Positions 36,001 through 42,000 of a DNA stretch of 64,000 nt are shown piece after piece. This stretch comes from Trueperaceae bacterium. Its GTDB lineage: Bacteria; Deinococcota; Deinococci; Deinococcales; Trueperaceae. How positions within the stretch are numbered: position 1 is the first letter of the stretch; each line of letters opens with the position of its first letter. The stretch is taken from the NCBI GenBank assembly GCA_965215565.1, contig CBDCDZ010000004.1, positions 1,728,001 to 1,792,000 of the forward strand, read 5' to 3'. The position numbers were made by a program.

Positions 36001-39000
36001 GGCGCTCCTATTCGTCGTCGGTTACTCCTTGAACGACTCGATCATCATCGCGGACAGGATTCGCGAGAATTTGCGCAAGGTGCGCGGGCGTTCGTACAAT
36101 GACATCGTGGACCTCTCGGTGAGCCAGACGTTGTCGCGCACGGTGGTCACGTCCGGTACGACGCTCCTGCCCGTGTTGGCGCTCCTCTTCTTCGGCGGCA
36201 GCGTGCTGCGCGACTTTAGCATCACCCTCTTAGTGGGTATCGGCTTCGGGACGTACTCGAGCATCTTCATCCTCGCCCCGATGGTGGCGTGGTTCAAAAA
36301 GCGCCAGCGTAAACCTAAGGTGAACAGAAAGCCGAGCGCGGCGTAAGCGAAGGGGGATTCATGAATCCCTCTACGGAACAGCGCTGTTTACAAACATAGA
36401 GGATGCAGGGGCGGGTTCGGAACCCGCCCCTGTTTTATTCGATAGCCTCATTCAATTGTGGTGGCGAACTGCCGCACGATGCGCCCCTGAAAGGAGAGCA
36501 CCGCTCGCCACGTGCCGGGGCGAAGCGTCACGCGCTCGGGCGAGAAGAGCGTACCCGTACCCCTCTCGTATTCCGGCTCTATCCACACCGAGTCCGAGGC
36601 AACTTGATCGTTGTTCGGGGCGAACCACTGTACCGCCAACCAGTCCGCTCCAGGTACCTCGCCCACTACGAAATCCAATTTGAGCCTCTCCCCTTCCCTC
36701 GTCAGCCCTGTCGGGCTGCTGAGGTCAAAGACTTTCTCTCTAGTGCGCGCCTCGGGAACAGGCGGGATGTAGGTATAGGTACAAGCGCTGAGGAGCAGAA
36801 GTGCGAGTATCGGCAGGGTAAGTCGTTTCATGTCGCCTCAATCATACGGGCTGAGTCTAAAGAGCGTGTGTGGCGTCTATGAAAGAGGTTGTTCTGTGAG
36901 GTTTTCAGCGAGGATGAAGAGGTTGTCCCCTTTCCGGTTAAGTGCGCTACTTTGTAGCGCATTTAATCCCGAGCAGAGCGAGTAGAAATAGCGACGGGTT
37001 CCGGTGAGTACGGAATCAACTCCACAGGAGTTTATGCAGTAATCAACCGGAATCCGTATTATAGCGCCTCCGGGAGCAAGAGCGCAGCCGTGAGCGCAAT
37101 GGGCGCAGTTTCGGCGCGGAGAATGCGCGCGCCCAAGGTGACACCCTTAGCACCCTTTTCGATCAGAAATTCAACCTCGTGCTCGCTCAATCCCCCTTCG
37201 GGTCCGGTGATGAGCGTGACCTCTTCTGCATCCGAGCCTGCGTCTGACTTCAGGACCTCTTGCAGGGTTGCGGAGGCGAAAGGATGCGCGATGAGTGTGA
37301 GAGGTCCCAAGTCCAACTTGGACAACTTGCAAAGCGCCTCCACCTCCGGCACGACGCTCCGCCCCGACTGCTTGGCGGCCTCTTTCGCGACGCGGCGGTA
37401 GCGCGTCAGCTTGTTATCAGAAAGGACTTTGACGTCGCAGCGGGCAGTCAAAACGGGGATGAAGCGCACCGCGCCGAGTTCGGTGCCGCGCCGCACGACT
37501 TCGGAGAATTTGTCGCCTTTAAGGAGGGGTACGGCGAGGGTGAGCTTGAGGGCGGCTTCTACGTCGCTCGGTTTGGGTAATTCTAAGCGGAGTGTGACGC
37601 TCAGTTCGTCCACCTCTTGCACTTCGCCCGCAGCTTCTAACCCTAAACCGTCGAACGCTTTCACCTTCGCCCCTGGTTTAACCCGCAAAACTTGCGCGAG
37701 ATGATGCGCCTCCGCGCCCGAGAGCGTCCGCTCACCCGCCTCTAAATCCTTCAGAAAGACACGATAAATTCTCATTTGTGGACCCTCACGAGTCGCGCTC
37801 CCTCTGAGCCAAGATAAGCGCCCACTCCTCTTTATGTTCGACTGAATGAACCGTGAGGTGAGCCTCGAGCGCCCCTTTCGCCATTTCTAAGCGCTCATCC
37901 AGAATCCCCGTCGCCAAGAGCCAGCCGCCCGGACGCAAGGCGCGGCAGTACGCGCTAGCAAAGTCTACGTGCAGTTCGGCAAAGAGGTTCGCGGTGACAA
38001 TATCAAAGCCTTCAGATACGGTGTCGTCGAACGTACCGAGCCTAAAGGTCGCCTTCGAATGATTGAGGGCGCGGTTTTCTTCTGCCACGGGTAAGGTCAA
38101 GGGGTCAATGTCAATTCCGACGGCTTCGGCTGCGCCTAAGAGGTCAGCGGCAATCGTTAAAATGCCCGAGCCTGCGCCTACATCCAGAACTCGTTTATTT
38201 TTTAGTCGAAAGGTCTCGAGCGCAGCCAACGCAAGGTGCGTCGTCGCGTGGTGCCCCGTGCCGAACGCCATGCCGGGGTCGAGCCAGAGGACGCGGCGCG
38301 TTTCATCCGTTGGGATTTCACAGTGCGTCGGCGCGACGATGAGGTGCCCTAAATAAACAGGTTCAAGCTCTGCGTAATACGCCGCTAAGTAATCCGTCTC
38401 TTCAACCTCTTGCCAGGTGCCTTGTAGGGGCAGGGCGACCGCTTCAGCGAAGTACGCCACCACCTCATCACCCTCTTGAGCGATCCCGAGACAGCCCGCC
38501 TCCCACAAGAGAGAGGTCTCCACTTCTAAATTCTCCAACTCGCCCTGCATGTGGAATGAAACGCTCATGCGAGTTCCTTGGGGTTGGCGACGCGCGCATC
38601 GCGGGTCACGATCTCGAAGCCGAGCCGCGCTCCCTCGTGCAGATAGAACTCGATATCGGCGCTCTTCGTCGCGCCACCTAACGACTTGCGGTGAAACGCC
38701 CGCGTCGCGCTCATGATCATCGTCTCTGCCATGCACGCGGGCACCATACCATCGCCAAAGTGCAAGTCGAGGTGGCTGCGCATCGCACCGGGCGGGCGCA
38801 CCACGCCGCCGGGGATGAGGTGGACGCCGGGAACCTCACGGACGCTCTCGTCCACGTCGGCAGGACGCCCGAGGTCGAAAATCCAAGCGCCGGGTTTGAC
38901 GTGGTGAGCGAACAGGACGGGCGCAGGATCAGAGGTCGCGGTGAAGATGAGGTCAGCCGTTTCGCACGCGGCAACGTCGGTGCTTATCTCAATCTGTGTA

Positions 39001-42000
39001 CCGGAGTATTTGCGGCGCAACGTTTTAGCACTGCGTTCTAAACGCGCTTCGTCTCGCCCGATGAGGATGAGACGCGCCACCTCTGGGGCGATGGTGCGGG
39101 CAACGCCAAAGGCGACGACGCCGTTTGCACCGATGATAGCGGCGCTCGAGCGCCCAAGCGCCCCCCCTTCCGCCTTGAAGCGCTTCAAGAGTCCCGGCAC
39201 CGCCGCCTTGACCGTCGCCGCCGTATACGCGCCGCCATTCGTGATGTGAATCTCCGGCACTGCCTCTTGCACTTTGAGCCCCTTCTCCCCTACCGTAGAC
39301 CAAAACGCGCCCAGCCCAAACGCCTCCGCGCCGAGTTCGTGCGCAAGCCGCGCCCCCTGAACCGCCAAGCGCGTCGCCTCTTCGGGATAGCGACGAATCT
39401 GCTCCGGGAACAAGGGACCGCTGAGGATCATCACGCGCAACTCGCGCCCGTCCGCCAATCGAATACCGCGCATCTCGTCCTGTTTTTGCGGACGCAAGAA
39501 GCGCAAAGCGCGGCGTATGAGGGAAAGCGGAATAACGCCGCGCTTTACCAGAAGACCGAGCCAACGCAAACTGCCTAGCTGCCAAACGTCGTCCATCGTC
39601 AGCGGGTGAATCATAAAGGCGGCGGTGACGACGTTCGGGTCTACGCCGCGCACGGGAGGCGGTTTGCCGAGCTTAGGCTCCGTCTGGTCCAAAATTCGCG
39701 CGAGCCCGACTTTGTGCCGCCACAGCCCTAAGATGAAGATGAGGCTTCCAACGAGCGTCAGCGGCGCAGGCTGAGAGACCCAAGCCAGGGTGAAAGCGAG
39801 CGTCAGAAGTCCCGCCACCGTCGCGAGCGTGATGTAACGACTCCAAGCGAGGAGAATAGCGTAGACCGCAAGTGGCGCGATTACGGTCCAAAGAGGGACG
39901 CCTGTGTAGACCCACAGCCCCACCAAAATCCCGAGGGTGACGCCGCTCCCTCTACCGCGCGGCACCTCGCCATAAGAAAGCCACGTCAGCGGGTAGAGAT
40001 GCCCCGCATATACTCCGAGCGCCACCCAGGGATTGCCCGCGAAAAGCGCCAGCACCGCGAAGCCTTTAAGCGCGTCTACGGCGAACGACGTGAGCACAGT
40101 GCCTACGCCGACGAAGCGCATCACGTTCTCGATGCCCAAGTTGTGCGCCGTCACCTCGCTCGGCTTGAGCCGCGTCGCCCAAACGACGAGGAAGCTACCC
40201 AAAGGTGACGAGCCGATGAGGTAGCTCGCTAAGAGGATGAGGGCGTCCACGTGTCTATCTTATAGGCTTACAGGTGAGTAAAGATGACGGGGGGAACTAC
40301 CTTCAGACGAGGGAGTGCGCGGCGTAGGGGTGATTCATGAATCACCCCTACAACATTTGCCTTTTTCTGTGATTTTCTATAGCATTTCCACGTTTCATTG
40401 CTGTAGCAATGAAACGTGCGAGCGGATGCGAGAAGAAATAGACGCCCTCACTTAGTGCAGCGAAGCGTGGAACTGCTGTAGTATTGCTCTACCGATATGA
40501 ATAGGGATTTAAGGTATATCCAACCTCACGTCTCCACCTTTAGGTACACCTGCTCGTTTTCCTCCTTGACCTCATAGGTCTCGAGCCGATACTCCCCCCC
40601 AAAATGCTCGCCCGTGCGGAGCGAAAAGGTATTTTTATGGAGCGGACACGCCACTTTGGGCTCGCCCTGCGCGTCGCCCACCAGACCTCTCGATAAGACC
40701 ATTTGCTCACGGTGCGGACACCTATTTTGCACGGCGTACCACGCGCTGTCGACAAAGAAAATGGCGATTTGTTTATCACCTAATTTGACGCAGCCGCGCC
40801 CGGTAGCGGCGAAATCACTCGTTTTGGCGACGGGTGTCCAGGTGTTGGATTCGACTAAGGTTGATGGCATGGGTTGACCTCTTTTCGTGGAGCAATTGGC
40901 GATTGGGTATTAGCAAAAGCTTGGCTTTTAGCTAACGGCTAACAGCTCATCTCCACTGGGTTTGTGTCACGCGAATAGCATCTTTTAGCAGTTCCAAAAC
41001 ATACTGAGACAGATGAGCGCAGGCATCATCACCGAATGTGCGTGTTGAACGTCGCTTCGGACAGTAAGAGTGTTTCAAACCAGATGATACCTGCTTCTCA
41101 TAACGTGAGTGTTCAAGCAACGCTCTACTCATTGAGGGCGTTTGTGACCAGATGCAGTCGCGTGGTCCCGCTCCCGCTAGACCTGCTGTACGGCTGAATT
41201 TGTCCCCGCACCTCTTCAAACTGAATACTCGAGTCCGGCTCATCCACGTTGAGAAAGGGGCGGAAGCGGGCGAGCTTTTCGGGGTCGTTCAAGGTCTTTT
41301 TCCACTCGCATTCGTAGGTGTTTACGACATGCTGCATTTCGCGCTCTAGCTCCTCGGCAATCCCTAGCGAATCGTGAACCACCACCTCTCGCACCTTCTC
41401 CAGACCACCCGGCAGTTTGTTCAGCCACGTCGCCGTGCGCTGCAACTTATCGGCGGTGCGCACGTAGTACATCAGAAAGCGGTCGATAGTCTTAAAGACC
41501 GTCTCGGTATCGATATCACTCACCAAAAGCTGCGCGTGCTGCGGCTTCATGCCGCCGTTGCCGCCGACGTAGAGGTTCCAGCCCTTGTCGGTTGCGATGA
41601 TGCCAACGTCTTTACCCTGCGCCTCGGCGCATTCGCGGGCGCAGCCGGAGACCGCCATCTTGACCTTGTGCGGGGTGCGCAGCCCTTTATAGCGGTTCTC
41701 GATATTGATGGCGAGCGTCGTCGAGTCCTGCACGCCGAAGCGACACCACGATTTACCGACGCAACTCTTCACCGTGCGGAGCGACTTGGCGTAGGCGTGA
41801 CCCGTCTCTAACCCTGCGTCCACCAGCCGCGCCCAGATGTCGGGCAAGTCCTCCAATCTCGCCCCGAAGAGGTCGATGCGCTGCCCGCCTGTGATTTTCG
41901 AGTAAAGCCCGTACGCTTTCGCTACGGAACCAATGGCGATGAGTTGGTCCGGCGTCAACTCGCCGCCTGGGACGCGCGGCACGACGGAATACGAACCGTT

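What a model noticed while it worked through the whole genome (the two positions that open the first line are those of the whole stretch)
38565..40250. PlsY-like membrane domain fused to an aldehyde-forming acyl reductase, kept throughout Deinococcota
Besides two ordinary plsY genes the genome has g01658 (561 aa), a PlsY-like membrane domain fused to a Rossmann domain whose best named relatives are the thioester-reductase half of prodigiosin PigE and cyanobacterial acyl-ACP reductase; the whole protein has a match in 349 of 364 Deinococcota genomes. I read it as an enzyme that takes the acyl-phosphate made by PlsX and reduces it to a fatty aldehyde, the missing entry step to the long-chain alkylamine (and perhaps long-chain diol) built into the signature phosphoglycolipids of Deinococcus, Thermus and their kin. 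New would be a gene for a lipid pathway with no known genes, and an acyl-phosphate reductase on a membrane acyltransferase scaffo [...]
Evidence so far: pfam.tsv: G3P_acyltransf 9-186 (E 4e-23), OCD_Mu_crystall 341-461, Shikimate_DH 364-479. NCBIfam at E<=0.01 on residues 200-561: PigE model positions 53-314 of 837 (E 1e-24), long-chain acyl-ACP reductase TIGR04058 positions 52-307 of 339 (E 2e-8), glutamyl-tRNA reductase (E 2e-9), all below their cut-offs; PDB sequences: PigE 4ppm residues 70-315 (E 7e-7). Other plsY: g01043, g03624; plsX g03354, gpsA g03773. tblastn of the whole protein in 364 Deinococcota species genomes: match at E<=1e-20 in 349 (256 of 263 high-quality ones; 56 of 60 genera; all six families); many Deinococcus rows show one stop inside the match. 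In five genomes from four other families the two parts lie in one open fra [...]
(Added by a program. Inside this text positions count along the whole contig: contig position 1,728,001 is position 1 of the stretch shown here. "Call 12" and the like, gene names such as g00115 and contig names such as C1 are that model's own, and its searches are not shown. The text may have been shortened before it was handed on; [...] marks where a part breaks off. The agent that wrote the report below was given it as the finding of a first reader that could run no searches.)

Follow-up and report, generated by a model that had tools for sequence, protein, structure and literature searches.

The report
Membrane fatty-aldehyde enzyme for alkylamine lipids
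This gene joins a worn-down copy of the membrane enzyme that starts phospholipid synthesis to a fatty-acyl reductase, and comparative genomics suggests it makes the fatty aldehyde that becomes the long-chain amine in the signature lipids of Deinococcus, Thermus and their relatives, a pathway for which no genes are known.

Summary
Window 38565-40250 (-) is one 561-aa frame: a PlsY-fold membrane domain plus an acyl-ACP-reductase (AAR)/PigE/TamH-type domain. It is found at E<=1e-20 in 349 of 364 Deinococcota genomes. The reported "one stop inside" is the natural stop codon.

New evidence:
- The PlsY-like domain keeps the acyl-phosphate half-site (His84 in 138/138 sequences; loop "PRGRG"). It has lost the glycerol-3-phosphate pocket (Ser35 to Ala/Pro; Asn180 and Arg45 variable; Thr41 to Glu in 131/138).
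- The reductase keeps the AAR catalytic cysteine (138/138).
- Its sister clade is the canonical PlsY-AAR fusions of Patescibacteria.
- In three families the gene is co-lost with a PigE-like class-III aminotransferase.
- The only four genomes with a TamH-type aminotransferase-reductase fusion lack both genes. TamH is proven to turn fatty acyl thioesters into fatty amines.

I read it as a membrane fatty-aldehyde-forming reductase feeding alkylamine synthesis. The acyl donor is probably acyl-phosphate. Nothing is shown biochemically.

The scan noted this family before on other DNA (e1-4584344). My paper searches found no description of it.

The parts
38565..40250 (-). Whole gene: 561-aa fusion protein (GTG start at 40250, TGA stop at 38565-38567)
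   Evidence: One open frame, also in 8 of 8 sampled loci from the other five families and Deinococcus-like genomes.
39654..40250 (-). PlsY-like 7-helix membrane domain, residues 1-199
   Evidence: Pfam PF02660 at 81 bits. Family profile against aaPlsY 5xj5, E 1.4e-23. AF2 model against 5xj5-5xj8, TM 0.78-0.80.
40128..40130 (-). Glu41, at the position of aaPlsY Thr41 (binds the acyl-phosphate carbonyl). Glu in 131 of 138 family members.
40146..40148 (-). Ala35, at the position of aaPlsY Ser35 (G3P phosphate clamp). Ala 114 and Pro 16 of 138; Ser in only 2.
39999..40001 (-). His84, equivalent to aaPlsY His92 (side chain of the acyl-phosphate 'phosphate hole'). Invariant, 138 of 138.
39948..39959 (-). 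Loop-3 motif R98-G-R100-G101 ('PRGRG'), replacing the PlsY 'GGKG' loop. Arg98 137/138, Arg100 135/138, Gly101 137/138.
39705..39716 (-). Degenerate PlsY motif 3 (H179-K-V-G182). The His177 equivalent is His in 105/138 (Phe/Tyr in Deinococcus- and Thermus-like members). The Asn180 equivalent is Asn in only 19/138.
38604..39629 (-). AAR/PigE/TamH-type NAD(P)-binding acyl reductase domain, residues ~208-549
   Evidence: Family profile against AAR 6jzu/6jzq, E 2.1e-17, and PigE 4ppm, 4.1e-14. Foldseek: AAR E 1e-18, TM 0.77; carmabin TAD E ~1e-15. Stand-alone relatives begin at the 'AFxIHP' motif, residues 211-216.
39105..39131 (-). Dinucleotide-binding motif G374-A-N-G377-V-V-A-F-G382. G374 and G377 138/138, G382 137/138.
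38733..38735 (-). Cys506 in 'PACMAE'. It aligns with the catalytic Cys294 of cyanobacterial AAR. Invariant, 138 of 138.
   Evidence: the mutant chain 6jzz, titled AAR-C294S, has Ser at this column
37786..38568 (-). prmA (ribosomal protein L11 methyltransferase). Its ATG overlaps the fusion gene's stop (ATGA), so the two are probably co-transcribed in this genome.
   Evidence: This linkage is not conserved in other families.

Best explanation
The gene encodes a membrane-bound, fatty-aldehyde-forming acyl reductase built on a remodelled PlsY scaffold. The N-terminal seven-helix domain still has the PlsY pocket for the phosphate and acyl chain of a long-chain acyl-phosphate, but it no longer has the glycerol-3-phosphate pocket. 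It therefore holds an acyl-phosphate (made by PlsX) without passing the acyl group to glycerol-3-phosphate. The acyl group goes instead to Cys506 of the tightly packed cytoplasmic AAR-type domain. There it forms a thioester that NAD(P)H reduces to a fatty aldehyde, released at the membrane surface. A separate class-III aminotransferase converts the aldehyde into the long-chain alkylamine of the N-glyceroyl-alkylamine phosphoglycolipids typical of the phylum. In Trueperaceae-, Deinococcus- and f3-type genomes this is the PigE-like enzyme found in this genome at contig C4:912722-914182. Shown here: architecture, fold, residue conservation, phyletic distribution, co-loss with the aminotransferase, and replacement by TamH-type fusions. 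Inferred: reductase activity, acyl-phosphate as donor, NAD(P)H use, and the lipid end product.
For: (1) The fold and catalytic residue of an aldehyde-forming thioester reductase are present. A family profile hits AAR at E 2.1e-17, and Cys506 falls on the AAR catalytic-cysteine column. Foldseek gives TM 0.77. Cys506 and the Rossmann glycines are kept in 138/138 members. Characterised relatives (AAR, PigE, PtTamH) all reduce acyl thioesters to aldehydes, and PtTamH and PigE feed a fused transaminase to give amines (PMC9594044 passages; PMC8341465 abstract).
(2) The PlsY-like domain shows selective decay. Using residue roles from the aaPlsY structures (PMC5700162 passages): His92 is kept in 138/138, and the phosphate-hole loop is kept as PRGRG. 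The G3P clamp residues have decayed: Ser35 is Ala or Pro in 130/138, Asn180 is kept in 19/138, and Arg45 in 94/138. Thr41 has become an almost invariant Glu. The genome has two ordinary PlsY genes.
(3) AF2 gives mean pLDDT 88.7 and pTM 0.85 for the two-domain protein, which points to one rigid unit.
(4) The reductase domain forms a clade with 10 of 11 canonical PlsY-AAR fusions (SH-aLRT 100; quick tree, 61 rows). This ties the reductase domain historically to PlsY's substrate.
(5) Phyletic profile in f1-f3 (272 genomes): the PigE-like aminotransferase is missing (E>1e-100) in 9 of the 14 genomes without the fusion, against 16 of the 258 with it. Among high-quality genomes it is missing in 5 of 7 without the fusion. 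Two of these are within-genus contrasts (g15: G265 against G263/G264; g25: G322/G323 against G320/G321).
(6) The TamH-type aminotransferase-reductase fusion (E<1e-200) occurs in 4 of 364 genomes (G336, G322, G323, G241). All four lack both the fusion and the aminotransferase.
(7) The gene is near-universal in a phylum whose signature lipids carry an alkylamine. The enzymes for this chain were stated to be unidentified in 2022 (PMC9636437 passages).
(8) No aldehyde-deformylating oxygenase is present in this genome, so an alkane route is unlikely.
Against: - There is no biochemical or genetic datum for any member.
- All matches to AAR and PigE family models are far below their curated cut-offs. 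TIGR04058 did not find the gene in the genome search.
- The acyl-phosphate site of PlsY is mostly backbone, so its retention is weakly diagnostic. Thr41, which binds the acyl carbonyl, is changed.
- I could not measure the distance between Cys506 and the PlsY-like pocket, because model coordinates are not exposed.
- The candidate aminotransferase has no clear orthologue in f4, f5 (Thermus-like) or f6. The best hits there are 43-45% identical and equally close to other paralogues.
- Two complete-looking genomes (G306 at 100%; G342 with only a 72-aa remnant) keep the aminotransferase without the fusion. Five high-quality genomes keep the fusion without the aminotransferase (G077, G099, G126, G137, G355).
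- Gene neighbourhoods are not conserved between families and contain no aminotransferase.
- Related genomes are not independent, and many genomes are incomplete.
- The sister fusions keep an intact PlsY, which fits acyl-phosphate supply to PlsY as well as reduction.
Confidence: 0.5

Rival explanations
1. Same reductase chemistry and the same alkylamine role, but the acyl donor is acyl-ACP or acyl-CoA, as in AAR, PigE and TamH. The PlsY-like domain is then only a membrane anchor or an exit channel that delivers the insoluble aldehyde into the bilayer.
For: All characterised members of the fold use 4'-phosphopantetheine thioesters. G3P-site residues have decayed, as expected for a domain losing catalysis. 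AAR itself needs a partner to hand over the aldehyde (titles of the AAR-ADO complex structures).
Against: A mere anchor would not keep charged intramembrane residues invariant across six families. These are D59, K62 and H84 (138/138), R98 (137/138), R100 (135/138), R178 (136/138) and E41 (131/138). The reductase domain groups with fusions to fully canonical PlsY domains, which argues for a functional tie to PlsY's ligands.
Confidence: 0.2
2. The enzyme runs the other way round, as earlier notes of this scan proposed for the Patescibacteria fusions. The AAR-like cysteine takes an acyl group from acyl-ACP and passes it to phosphate, substituting for PlsX. The remodelled PlsY domain then transfers the acyl group to an acceptor other than glycerol-3-phosphate, making the protein a new self-contained membrane acyltransferase.
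For: Sister clade of canonical PlsY-AAR fusions. Earlier notes e1-861914, e1-796763 and e1-4669752. The G3P pocket is altered rather than destroyed: an invariant Glu41 and the Arg-rich loop are new conserved features. Other AAR-like domains are fused to PlsC-type acyltransferases (P0163, P0245).
Against: The dinucleotide-binding glycines are invariant, which a pure transacylase would not require. This reading does not explain the co-loss with an aminotransferase or the replacement by TamH-type fusions.
Confidence: 0.12
3. It makes a fatty aldehyde or alcohol for another lipid class rather than for the alkylamine: long-chain 1,2-diols, alkyl or alkenyl ethers, or wax esters.
For: Aldehyde-forming chemistry is generic. 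Reductase-acyltransferase fusions are used for ether lipids in myxobacteria (recalled, not checked here). Thermus-type genomes lack a clear orthologue of the candidate aminotransferase.
Against: Diols and ethers are not general traits of the whole phylum (recalled), whereas the gene is present in 349 of 364 genomes. The aminotransferase co-loss and TamH-type displacement point to an amine.
Confidence: 0.1
4. It is just a third, redundant glycerol-3-phosphate acyltransferase, as public annotations name it, with an accessory dehydrogenase-like tail.
For: It passes the Pfam PF02660 cut-off. Sources name relatives 'glycerol-3-phosphate acyltransferase'.
Against: It is below the PlsY equivalog cut-off (59.5 against 137.2 bits). 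Ser35 and Asn180 are lost; alanine mutants of each lost >92% of activity in aaPlsY. Thr41 is replaced.
Confidence: 0.03

Closest known systems
Cyanobacterial acyl-ACP reductase AAR (TIGR04058; PDB 6JZQ, 6JZU, 6JZY)
   Same: The fold of the C-terminal 350 residues (Foldseek E 1e-18, TM 0.77), the NAD(P)-binding motif, and the catalytic cysteine column. The expected chemistry is acyl-S-Cys reduced to a fatty aldehyde.
   Different: Only 19-21% identity, and far below the family cut-off. Fused to a membrane domain. No aldehyde-deformylating oxygenase partner in the genome. The donor is probably not acyl-ACP.
PtTamH (tambjamine) and PigE (prodigiosin): AAR-like thioester reductase fused to a class-III transaminase
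   Same: The reductase family (PigE model E 3.7e-24; 4ppm E 4e-14). Their proven logic of acyl to aldehyde to amine (PMC9594044) is what I propose here with a separate transaminase. TamH-type genes replace this gene and the transaminase in 4 genomes.
   Different: No transaminase domain. The partner domain is PlsY-like. This would be primary membrane-lipid metabolism rather than a pigment gene cluster. Chain length would be C15-C18 rather than C12 or C8 (recalled).
PlsY, acyl-phosphate:glycerol-3-phosphate acyltransferase (PF02660, TIGR00023; Aquifex PlsY 5XJ5-5XJ9)
   Same: The seven-helix fold (TM 0.78-0.80). His92, the D..LKG motif and a glycine-rich loop 3 of the acyl-phosphate site are kept.
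   Different: The G3P pocket is not kept (Ser35, Asn180, partly Arg45 and His177). Thr41 is Glu, and Lys104 is Arg. It is below the equivalog cut-off. The genome has two ordinary PlsY genes.
Canonical PlsY-AAR-like fusions of Patescibacteria and others (uncharacterised; earlier notes e1-861914, e1-796763, e1-4669752, e1-2527782, e1-1302470)
   Same: The same two-domain order. The reductase domains are sister clades. The cysteine is conserved.
   Different: Those keep the full PlsY motifs: GSGN.GATN, GGK and HRxN, with Pfam scores of 118-154 bits against 81-97. They may be the organism's only PlsY. The Deinococcota form is a derived extra copy.
Aspartate-semialdehyde, N-acetyl-glutamyl-phosphate and glutamyl-phosphate reductases (Cys-dependent acyl-phosphate reductases)
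   Same: The proposed chemistry: acyl-phosphate to acyl-S-Cys to aldehyde with NADPH (established enzymology, recalled).
   Different: A different fold family; no PF01118 or PF02774 match for this protein. Those enzymes have soluble, short substrates. A search for 'acyl-phosphate reductase' and variants found 0 papers.
Terminal amidation domain (TAD) of the carmabin pathway (PDB 9E4S-9E56)
   Same: An AAR-like fold with an invariant cysteine next to NAD (bioRxiv 10.1101/2024.10.28.620694, abstract). Foldseek E ~1e-15.
   Different: It is the end domain of an NRPS and acts on carrier-protein thioesters. Its function is only putative.

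Membership tests
PlsY (TIGR00023 / PF02660) | Seven-helix PlsY fold and a Pfam domain match | tested here: met
   PF02660 at 81 bits (cut-off 24.1). TM 0.78-0.80 to 5xj5-5xj8.
PlsY (TIGR00023 / PF02660) | Score over the curated equivalog cut-off | tested here: not met
   TIGR00023 at 59.5 bits against a cut-off of 137.2.
PlsY (TIGR00023 / PF02660) | G3P phosphate clamp Ser35, Arg45, Lys104, Asn180, plus His177 (PMC5700162) | tested here: not met
   Of 138 family members: Ser35 equivalent is Ala 114, Pro 16, Ser 2. Arg45 equivalent is Arg 94. Lys104 equivalent is Arg 135, Lys 3. Asn180 equivalent is Asn 19. His177 equivalent is His 105.
PlsY (TIGR00023 / PF02660) | Acyl-phosphate site: His92 side chain, glycine-rich loop 3, Thr41 hydroxyl | tested here: inconclusive
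   His 138/138 and the loop kept as PRGRG, but Thr41 is Glu in 131/138.
Acyl-ACP reductase AAR (TIGR04058) | Score over the curated cut-off | tested here: not met
   Not listed at E<=0.01 for the whole protein. The genome search with the model missed the gene.
Acyl-ACP reductase AAR (TIGR04058) | AAR fold with a Rossmann domain | tested here: met
   Foldseek 6jzz/6jzu/6jzy at E 1e-18, TM 0.77. Profile E 2.1e-17 over AAR residues 38-316 of 341.
Acyl-ACP reductase AAR (TIGR04058) | Catalytic cysteine (Cys294 of S. elongatus AAR) | tested here: met
   Cys506 aligns with it, and the mutant chain 6jzz (AAR-C294S) has Ser at that column. Cys in 138/138.
Acyl-ACP reductase AAR (TIGR04058) | NADPH-dependent reduction of acyl-ACP to aldehyde; an ADO partner | not testable with these tools
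   Activity cannot be computed. No ADO (PF11266) in the genome.
TamH/PigE-type reductase-transaminase | AAR-like reductase and a class-III transaminase in one polypeptide | tested here: not met
   No Aminotran_3 domain in the protein. True TamH-type fusions exist in 4 other genomes of the phylum.
Semialdehyde-dehydrogenase-type acyl-phosphate reductases (PF01118/PF02774) | Sequence membership | tested here: not met
   No match at E<=0.01. The resemblance is to the proposed chemistry only.

The most novel reading that the evidence does not exclude
The protein is a two-step machine for the phylum's signature lipid. (a) The AAR-fold domain is the first long-chain acyl-phosphate reductase: it takes PlsX-made acyl-phosphate directly from the PlsY-like pocket and makes the fatty aldehyde. 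(b) After transamination by a separate enzyme, the remodelled PlsY domain uses its acyl-phosphate chemistry in reverse polarity. The hydrophobic groove holds the alkylamine, and the acyl-phosphate donor is 1,3-bisphosphoglycerate. The product would be N-(3-phosphoglyceroyl)alkylamine, a lysophosphatidate look-alike that could then receive the phosphatidyl group. One gene would then explain both the alkyl chain and the unusual glyceroyl amide.
Probability: 0.07. Interest if true: 0.92.

Novelty: new variant of a known kind. Interest (0 to 1): 0.75.

Why it matters
The N-glyceroyl-alkylamine phosphoglycolipids have been the chemotaxonomic hallmark of Deinococcus and Thermus since the 1980s (recalled). 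In 2022 the enzymes forming the extra chain were still described as unidentified (PMC9636437). The same lipid class has now been reported as dominant in several Bacillota (title of Bale et al. 2025, seen only as a citation).

This gene gives a concrete, testable entry point in two genetically tractable model organisms. Alongside it come a candidate transaminase and a natural replacement experiment, the TamH-type genomes.

If the donor is acyl-phosphate, this would be a new enzyme activity on a membrane-acyltransferase scaffold. It would also be a second metabolic fate for the PlsX product. Biotechnologically, it would be a membrane-coupled route from fatty acids to fatty aldehydes and amines.

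Tried and rejected
- **Split genes in Deinococcus:** rejected. The stop is the natural one.
- **Conserved operon partner:** none found. Neighbourhoods differ between families. Here they are prmA/rsmE and nirBD. In two families a PNP_UDP_1 gene follows. In one Deinococcus-like locus a diacylglycerol kinase precedes. There is no aminotransferase in 8 loci. Neighbours of the candidate aminotransferase are also uninformative.
- **Unknown ~300-aa protein ('cluster 1') as a discriminating partner:** not discriminating. It lies next to stand-alone AAR-like genes in 33 of 80 loci. In the phylum it is present in 351 of 364 genomes, including those that lack the fusion. Its model (pLDDT 90.8) gave only weak fold matches, TM 0.35-0.48, to sugar-binding proteins, AAR/TAD and amino-acid dehydrogenases.
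- **Orthology of the candidate aminotransferase in Thermus-type genomes:** ambiguous on reciprocal comparison. The aminotransferases next to stand-alone AAR-like genes are not specific orthologues of it either.
- **Named check of the Bacillota species known to make these lipids:** the paper is not held. I could only show that all 28 of 28 genomes in the order of a MAG titled Moorellales carry a stand-alone AAR-like gene. Moorella thermoacetica is listed as yielding N-glyceroyl alkylamines. Because that gene family is widespread, this is weak evidence.
- **TIGR04058 genome search:** it missed the gene. Its control rang in Thermus thermophilus and Deinococcus radiodurans at places not shown.
- **Distance from Cys506 to the PlsY-like pocket:** not measurable, because no coordinates were available.
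- **Careful maximum-likelihood tree:** it did not finish in the time allowed. The quick tree was used.
- **Earlier notes near this place:** none.

Full report
**Observation.** Window 38565-40250 on the minus strand is a single 561-aa frame with a GTG start.
- Pfam finds a PlsY domain (PF02660) at residues 9-186 (81 bits), and weak Shikimate_DH and OCD_Mu_crystall matches at 341-479.
- NCBIfam's best match is the N-terminal part of the PigE model (positions 53-314 of 837, E 3.7e-24). It is far below the cut-off. PlsY TIGR00023 scores 59.5 bits against a cut-off of 137.2.
- The genome has two other, better-scoring PlsY genes. It has only this one AAR-like gene.
- The gene's stop overlaps the ATG of prmA (ATGA), and rsmE follows. 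Upstream lies a 275-bp gap and then nirD/nirB.

**Distribution in the phylum.** The whole protein matches in 360 of 364 genomes at E<=1e-3.
- At E<=1e-20 the table gives 349 of 364, and 256 of 263 high-quality genomes, in all six families.
- The flagged internal stops are not internal. In L040 the stop is at query position 550, which is the natural end. L041 has no stop within residues 12-548.
- Eight loci sampled from the other five families and from Deinococcus-like genomes all hold one full-length frame of 553-580 aa.
- One genome (G324) is flagged unpublished. It is counted, and contributes one of 18 rows to alignment A1. No conclusion depends on it alone.

**The reductase domain.** A profile of 18 family members (A1) hits the cyanobacterial acyl-ACP reductase structures 6jzu and 6jzq at E 2.1e-17, over AAR residues 38-316 of 341. 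It hits PigE 4ppm at 4.1e-14.
- The invariant Cys506 ('PAC[LM]AE') falls on the column where AAR reads 'FACFAE'. The mutant chain 6jzz, titled AAR-C294S, reads 'FASFAE' there. Cys506 is therefore the AAR nucleophile.
- The AF2 model (mean pLDDT 88.7, pTM 0.85) matches AAR at Foldseek E 1e-18 and TM 0.77. It matches the AAR-like 'terminal amidation domain' of the carmabin pathway at E ~1e-15 (abstract).
- In 138 distinct family members, Cys506, Glu509, Gly374 and Gly377 are kept in 138 of 138.
- Characterised relatives reduce acyl thioesters to aldehydes through this cysteine. In PtTamH and PigE the aldehyde goes straight to a fused class-III transaminase. PtTamA plus PtTamH convert fatty acids to fatty amines (PMC9594044 passages; PMC8341465 abstract).

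**The PlsY-like domain.** The model's N-terminal 200 residues superpose on Aquifex PlsY at TM 0.78-0.80. Residue roles come from the PlsY structure paper (PMC5700162 passages), and equivalences.

| aaPlsY residue | Role in PlsY | State in the family (of 138) |
|---|---|---|
| His92 | acyl-phosphate site | His 138 |
| Loop 3 | acyl-phosphate phosphate hole | kept as P-R98-G-R100-G101 (137, 135, 137) |
| D..LKG motif | conserved PlsY motif | Asp59 and Lys62 138 |
| Thr41 | binds the acyl carbonyl | Glu 131 |
| Ser35 | G3P clamp | Ala 114, Pro 16, Ser 2 |
| Asn180 | G3P clamp | Asn 19 |
| Arg45 | G3P clamp | Arg 94 |
| His177 | G3P 2-OH | His 105 (Phe/Tyr in Deinococcus- and Thermus-like members) |

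In aaPlsY, alanine mutants of the clamp residues lost more than 92% of activity. The domain is therefore under strong selection, with many invariant charged residues, but not as a glycerol-3-phosphate acyltransferase.

**Relatives outside the family.** A search of 1.84 billion representative proteins with residues 200-561 found 1891 relatives at E<=1e-3.
- About eleven clusters are the full-length orthologous fusion (E<1e-90, 551-600 aa).
- After a gap, at E ~1e-39 and below, come several other architectures:
  - stand-alone proteins of 340-390 aa;
  - fusions to canonical PlsY (11 examined, PF02660 118-154 bits);
  - fusions to PlsC-type acyltransferase (2);
  - fusions to START/Polyketide_cyc lipid-binding domains, with or without PilZ (9: 8 with clear START matches plus P0179, a weak one; a further 2, P0208 and P0244, carry PilZ without START);
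  - fusions to class-III aminotransferase, alone or also with an adenylation domain (2);
  - fusions to an unknown 300-aa N-terminus.
- The canonical PlsY fusions keep GSGN.GATN, GGK and HRxN. One is named Patescibacteria.
- In a quick maximum-likelihood tree of 61 reductase domains, the Deinococcota domains (11 rows) and 10 of 11 canonical-PlsY fusions are sister clades (SH-aLRT 100). All other architectures fall outside.
- This tree has no bootstrap, the careful search was unfinished, and one long-branched fusion falls elsewhere.
- The Deinococcota gene thus looks like a derived extra copy of an older PlsY-AAR fusion.
- This scan has noted both forms before on other DNA: e1-4584344 for the degenerate form, and several notes for the Patescibacteria form with the idea of a PlsX substitute.

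**Stand-alone relatives and amine logic.** A scan of species genomes with an alignment of the stand-alone group (A3) found 483 relatives. The best 80 loci are from Bacillota (including a Moorellales MAG, Caloramator, Tepidanaerobacter, Desulfallas, Tumebacillus and Negativicutes), Armatimonadota, Eremiobacterota/Vulcanimicrobiota, Chloroflexota and some Actinomycetes.
- I clustered 879 neighbouring ORFs. Counts are per 80 loci; my ORF clustering recognised the central gene in 71.
- A class-III aminotransferase lies on the same strand about 450 bp upstream in 18 loci.
- A START-domain protein lies immediately upstream in 10 loci.
- An unannotated ~300-aa protein is adjacent in 33 loci.
- A hexapeptide transferase is adjacent in 10 loci (Chloroflexota).
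- The reductase-plus-transaminase pairing therefore recurs as an operon as well as a fusion.
- All 28 of 28 genomes in the order of the Moorellales MAG carry the stand-alone gene. Of these, 25 are full length, 2 are cut by contig ends and 1 lies within a longer frame.
- Moorella thermoacetica is listed as yielding N-glyceroyl alkylamines (PMC13274423 table). That paper cites Bale et al. 2025 on such lipids dominating several Bacillota. I could not read Bale et al..

**Co-distribution inside the phylum.** This genome has seven class-III aminotransferases. Six look like LysJ/ArgD, GabT (2), RocD and others. One (C4:912722-914182, 486 aa) is best matched by the PigE transaminase part (284 bits) and by putrescine aminotransferase.
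- Orthologue-level matches (E<1e-100, 54-87% identity) occur in nearly all genomes of families f1-f3.
- Of the 272 f1-f3 genomes, 14 have no fusion at E<=1e-20. Nine of these also lack the aminotransferase: G241, G242, G265, G266, G269, G322, G323, G326 and G336. Five keep it: G306, G342, G308, G237 and G093.
- Of the 258 genomes with the fusion, 16 lack the aminotransferase. Eleven of those 16 are under 90% complete. One of the remaining five, G099, has 16,000 withheld bases.
- Among high-quality genomes, 5 of the 7 without the fusion also lack the aminotransferase.
- Two cases are within-genus contrasts: G265 against G263/G264, and G322/G323 against G320/G321.
- These genomes are not simply depleted. 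The unrelated 'cluster 1' gene is present in G265, G322, G323 and G336.
- Caveats: related genomes are not independent, and thresholds were set by eye from the bimodal E-values.

**Replacement by TamH-type fusions.** G336 lacks the fusion but has a 955-aa protein with an N-terminal Aminotran_3 domain and a C-terminal AAR-like domain, the TamH arrangement. G323 has a 53% identical orthologue (51% by tblastn).
- Across 364 genomes this protein is found at E<1e-200 in exactly four: G336, G322, G323 and G241. All four are in the set lacking both the fusion and the aminotransferase.
- Weaker hits in G264 and G265 are 1472-1473-aa frames. The G265 one is an adenylation-transaminase-reductase protein beside a polyketide synthase.
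- A proven acyl-to-amine enzyme type thus stands in for exactly this pair of genes. This is the strongest evidence here that the pair carries out the same net conversion.

**Limits.**
- The aminotransferase has no clear orthologue in f4, f5 (Thermus-like) and f6. The best hits there are 43-45% identical and equidistant from three paralogues, so another transaminase must be assumed.
- G306 (100% complete) and G342 (a 72-aa remnant with a stop) keep the aminotransferase without the fusion.
- Neighbourhoods are not conserved.
- Model coordinates are not exposed, so the geometry between Cys506 and the PlsY-like pocket is untested.
- No aldehyde-deformylating oxygenase is present.
- Whether this species makes alkylamine lipids is unknown.

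**Literature.**
- Searches for alkylamine, phosphoglycolipid and Deinococcus, PlsY with acyl-ACP reductase fusion, glyceroyl alkylamine, AAR/COG5322/PigE, alkylamine with Bacillota, 'acyl-phosphate reductase' and variants (0 papers), and Deinococcus/Thermus/PlsY found no description of this protein or of genes for the alkylamine.
- PMC9636437 (passages) states that the enzymes forming the extra hydrophobic chain of Thermus lipids have not been identified.
- Subscription-journal papers, including the original lipid chemistry and Bale et al. 2025, were not searchable.

**Verdict.** The finding is real and conserved, and my paper searches found no description of it. The most likely function is a membrane fatty-aldehyde-forming reductase that supplies the alkylamine of the phylum's signature phosphoglycolipids, probably drawing on acyl-phosphate. 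Overall confidence is about 0.5. Confidence is higher for 'aldehyde-forming reductase' and lower for the donor.

Noticed in passing
L127:8187-9089 (-) (own genome C4:3888187-3889089, outside the window): An unannotated ~300-aa soluble protein family with no Pfam or NCBIfam match. It lies directly beside stand-alone AAR-like genes in 33 of 80 loci from several phyla. It is present in 351 of 364 Deinococcota genomes. Here it sits upstream of efp-accB-accC. Its model (pLDDT 90.8) has two alpha/beta domains with only weak fold matches (TM 0.35-0.48) to sugar-binding proteins, AAR/TAD and amino-acid dehydrogenases.
   Followed up: partly
L042:7688-10555 (-) (G336); also G322, G323, G241: A TamH-type protein (class-III aminotransferase plus AAR-like reductase, 926-955 aa) in exactly 4 of 364 Deinococcota genomes. 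All four lack both the PlsY-like fusion and the PigE-like aminotransferase.
   Followed up: yes
L147:7723-9183 (+) (own genome C4:912722-914182, outside the window): A PigE- and putrescine-aminotransferase-like class-III transaminase with a ~70-aa N-terminal extension. It is the candidate alkylamine-forming partner. Its neighbours (peptide ABC transporter, DUF2254, TerC) are uninformative.
   Followed up: partly
P0163, P0245, P0145, P0148, P0158, P0167, P0174: AAR-like reductase domains also occur fused to PlsC-type acyltransferase and to START/Polyketide_cyc lipid-binding domains, sometimes with PilZ and HTH domains. This is a wider, uncharacterised family of lipid-linked reductases.
   Followed up: no
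L090, L092, L101, L109, L110, L115, L117, L123, L126 (Chloroflexota loci): A conserved string: DUF4388, small Ras/MglA-like GTPase, alpha/beta hydrolase, 426-aa hexapeptide transferase, AAR-like reductase, response regulator.
   Followed up: no
window 40526-46281 (-): An assimilatory nitrite reductase and sirohaem cluster: nirD, nirB, a CbiX-type chelatase, uroporphyrinogen-III C-methyltransferase and HemD, followed by an MFS transporter at 46287-47633.
   Followed up: no
window 38565-38568 and 40251-40300: The stop of the fusion gene overlaps the prmA start (ATGA). Upstream of the GTG start there is no Shine-Dalgarno-like sequence but an A/T-rich 'TATAAGAT' a few bases before it. This fits the leaderless, -10-adjacent expression reported for this phylum (PMC12340547, abstract only).
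   Followed up: no
L034:11002-11745 (-) and L147:10604-11386 (-): A TerC-family membrane protein lies directly upstream of the fusion gene in a Meiothermus-like genome, and two genes from the candidate aminotransferase in this genome. This may be coincidence.
   Followed up: no
L040:10967-11401 (-): In one Deinococcus-like genome a prokaryotic diacylglycerol kinase gene lies immediately upstream of the fusion gene on the same strand.
   Followed up: no
window 36403-36882 (+) and 40947-41243 (-): Two ORFs (159 and 98 aa) with no Pfam or NCBIfam match. The second overlaps the end of nirB and may not be a gene.
   Followed up: no
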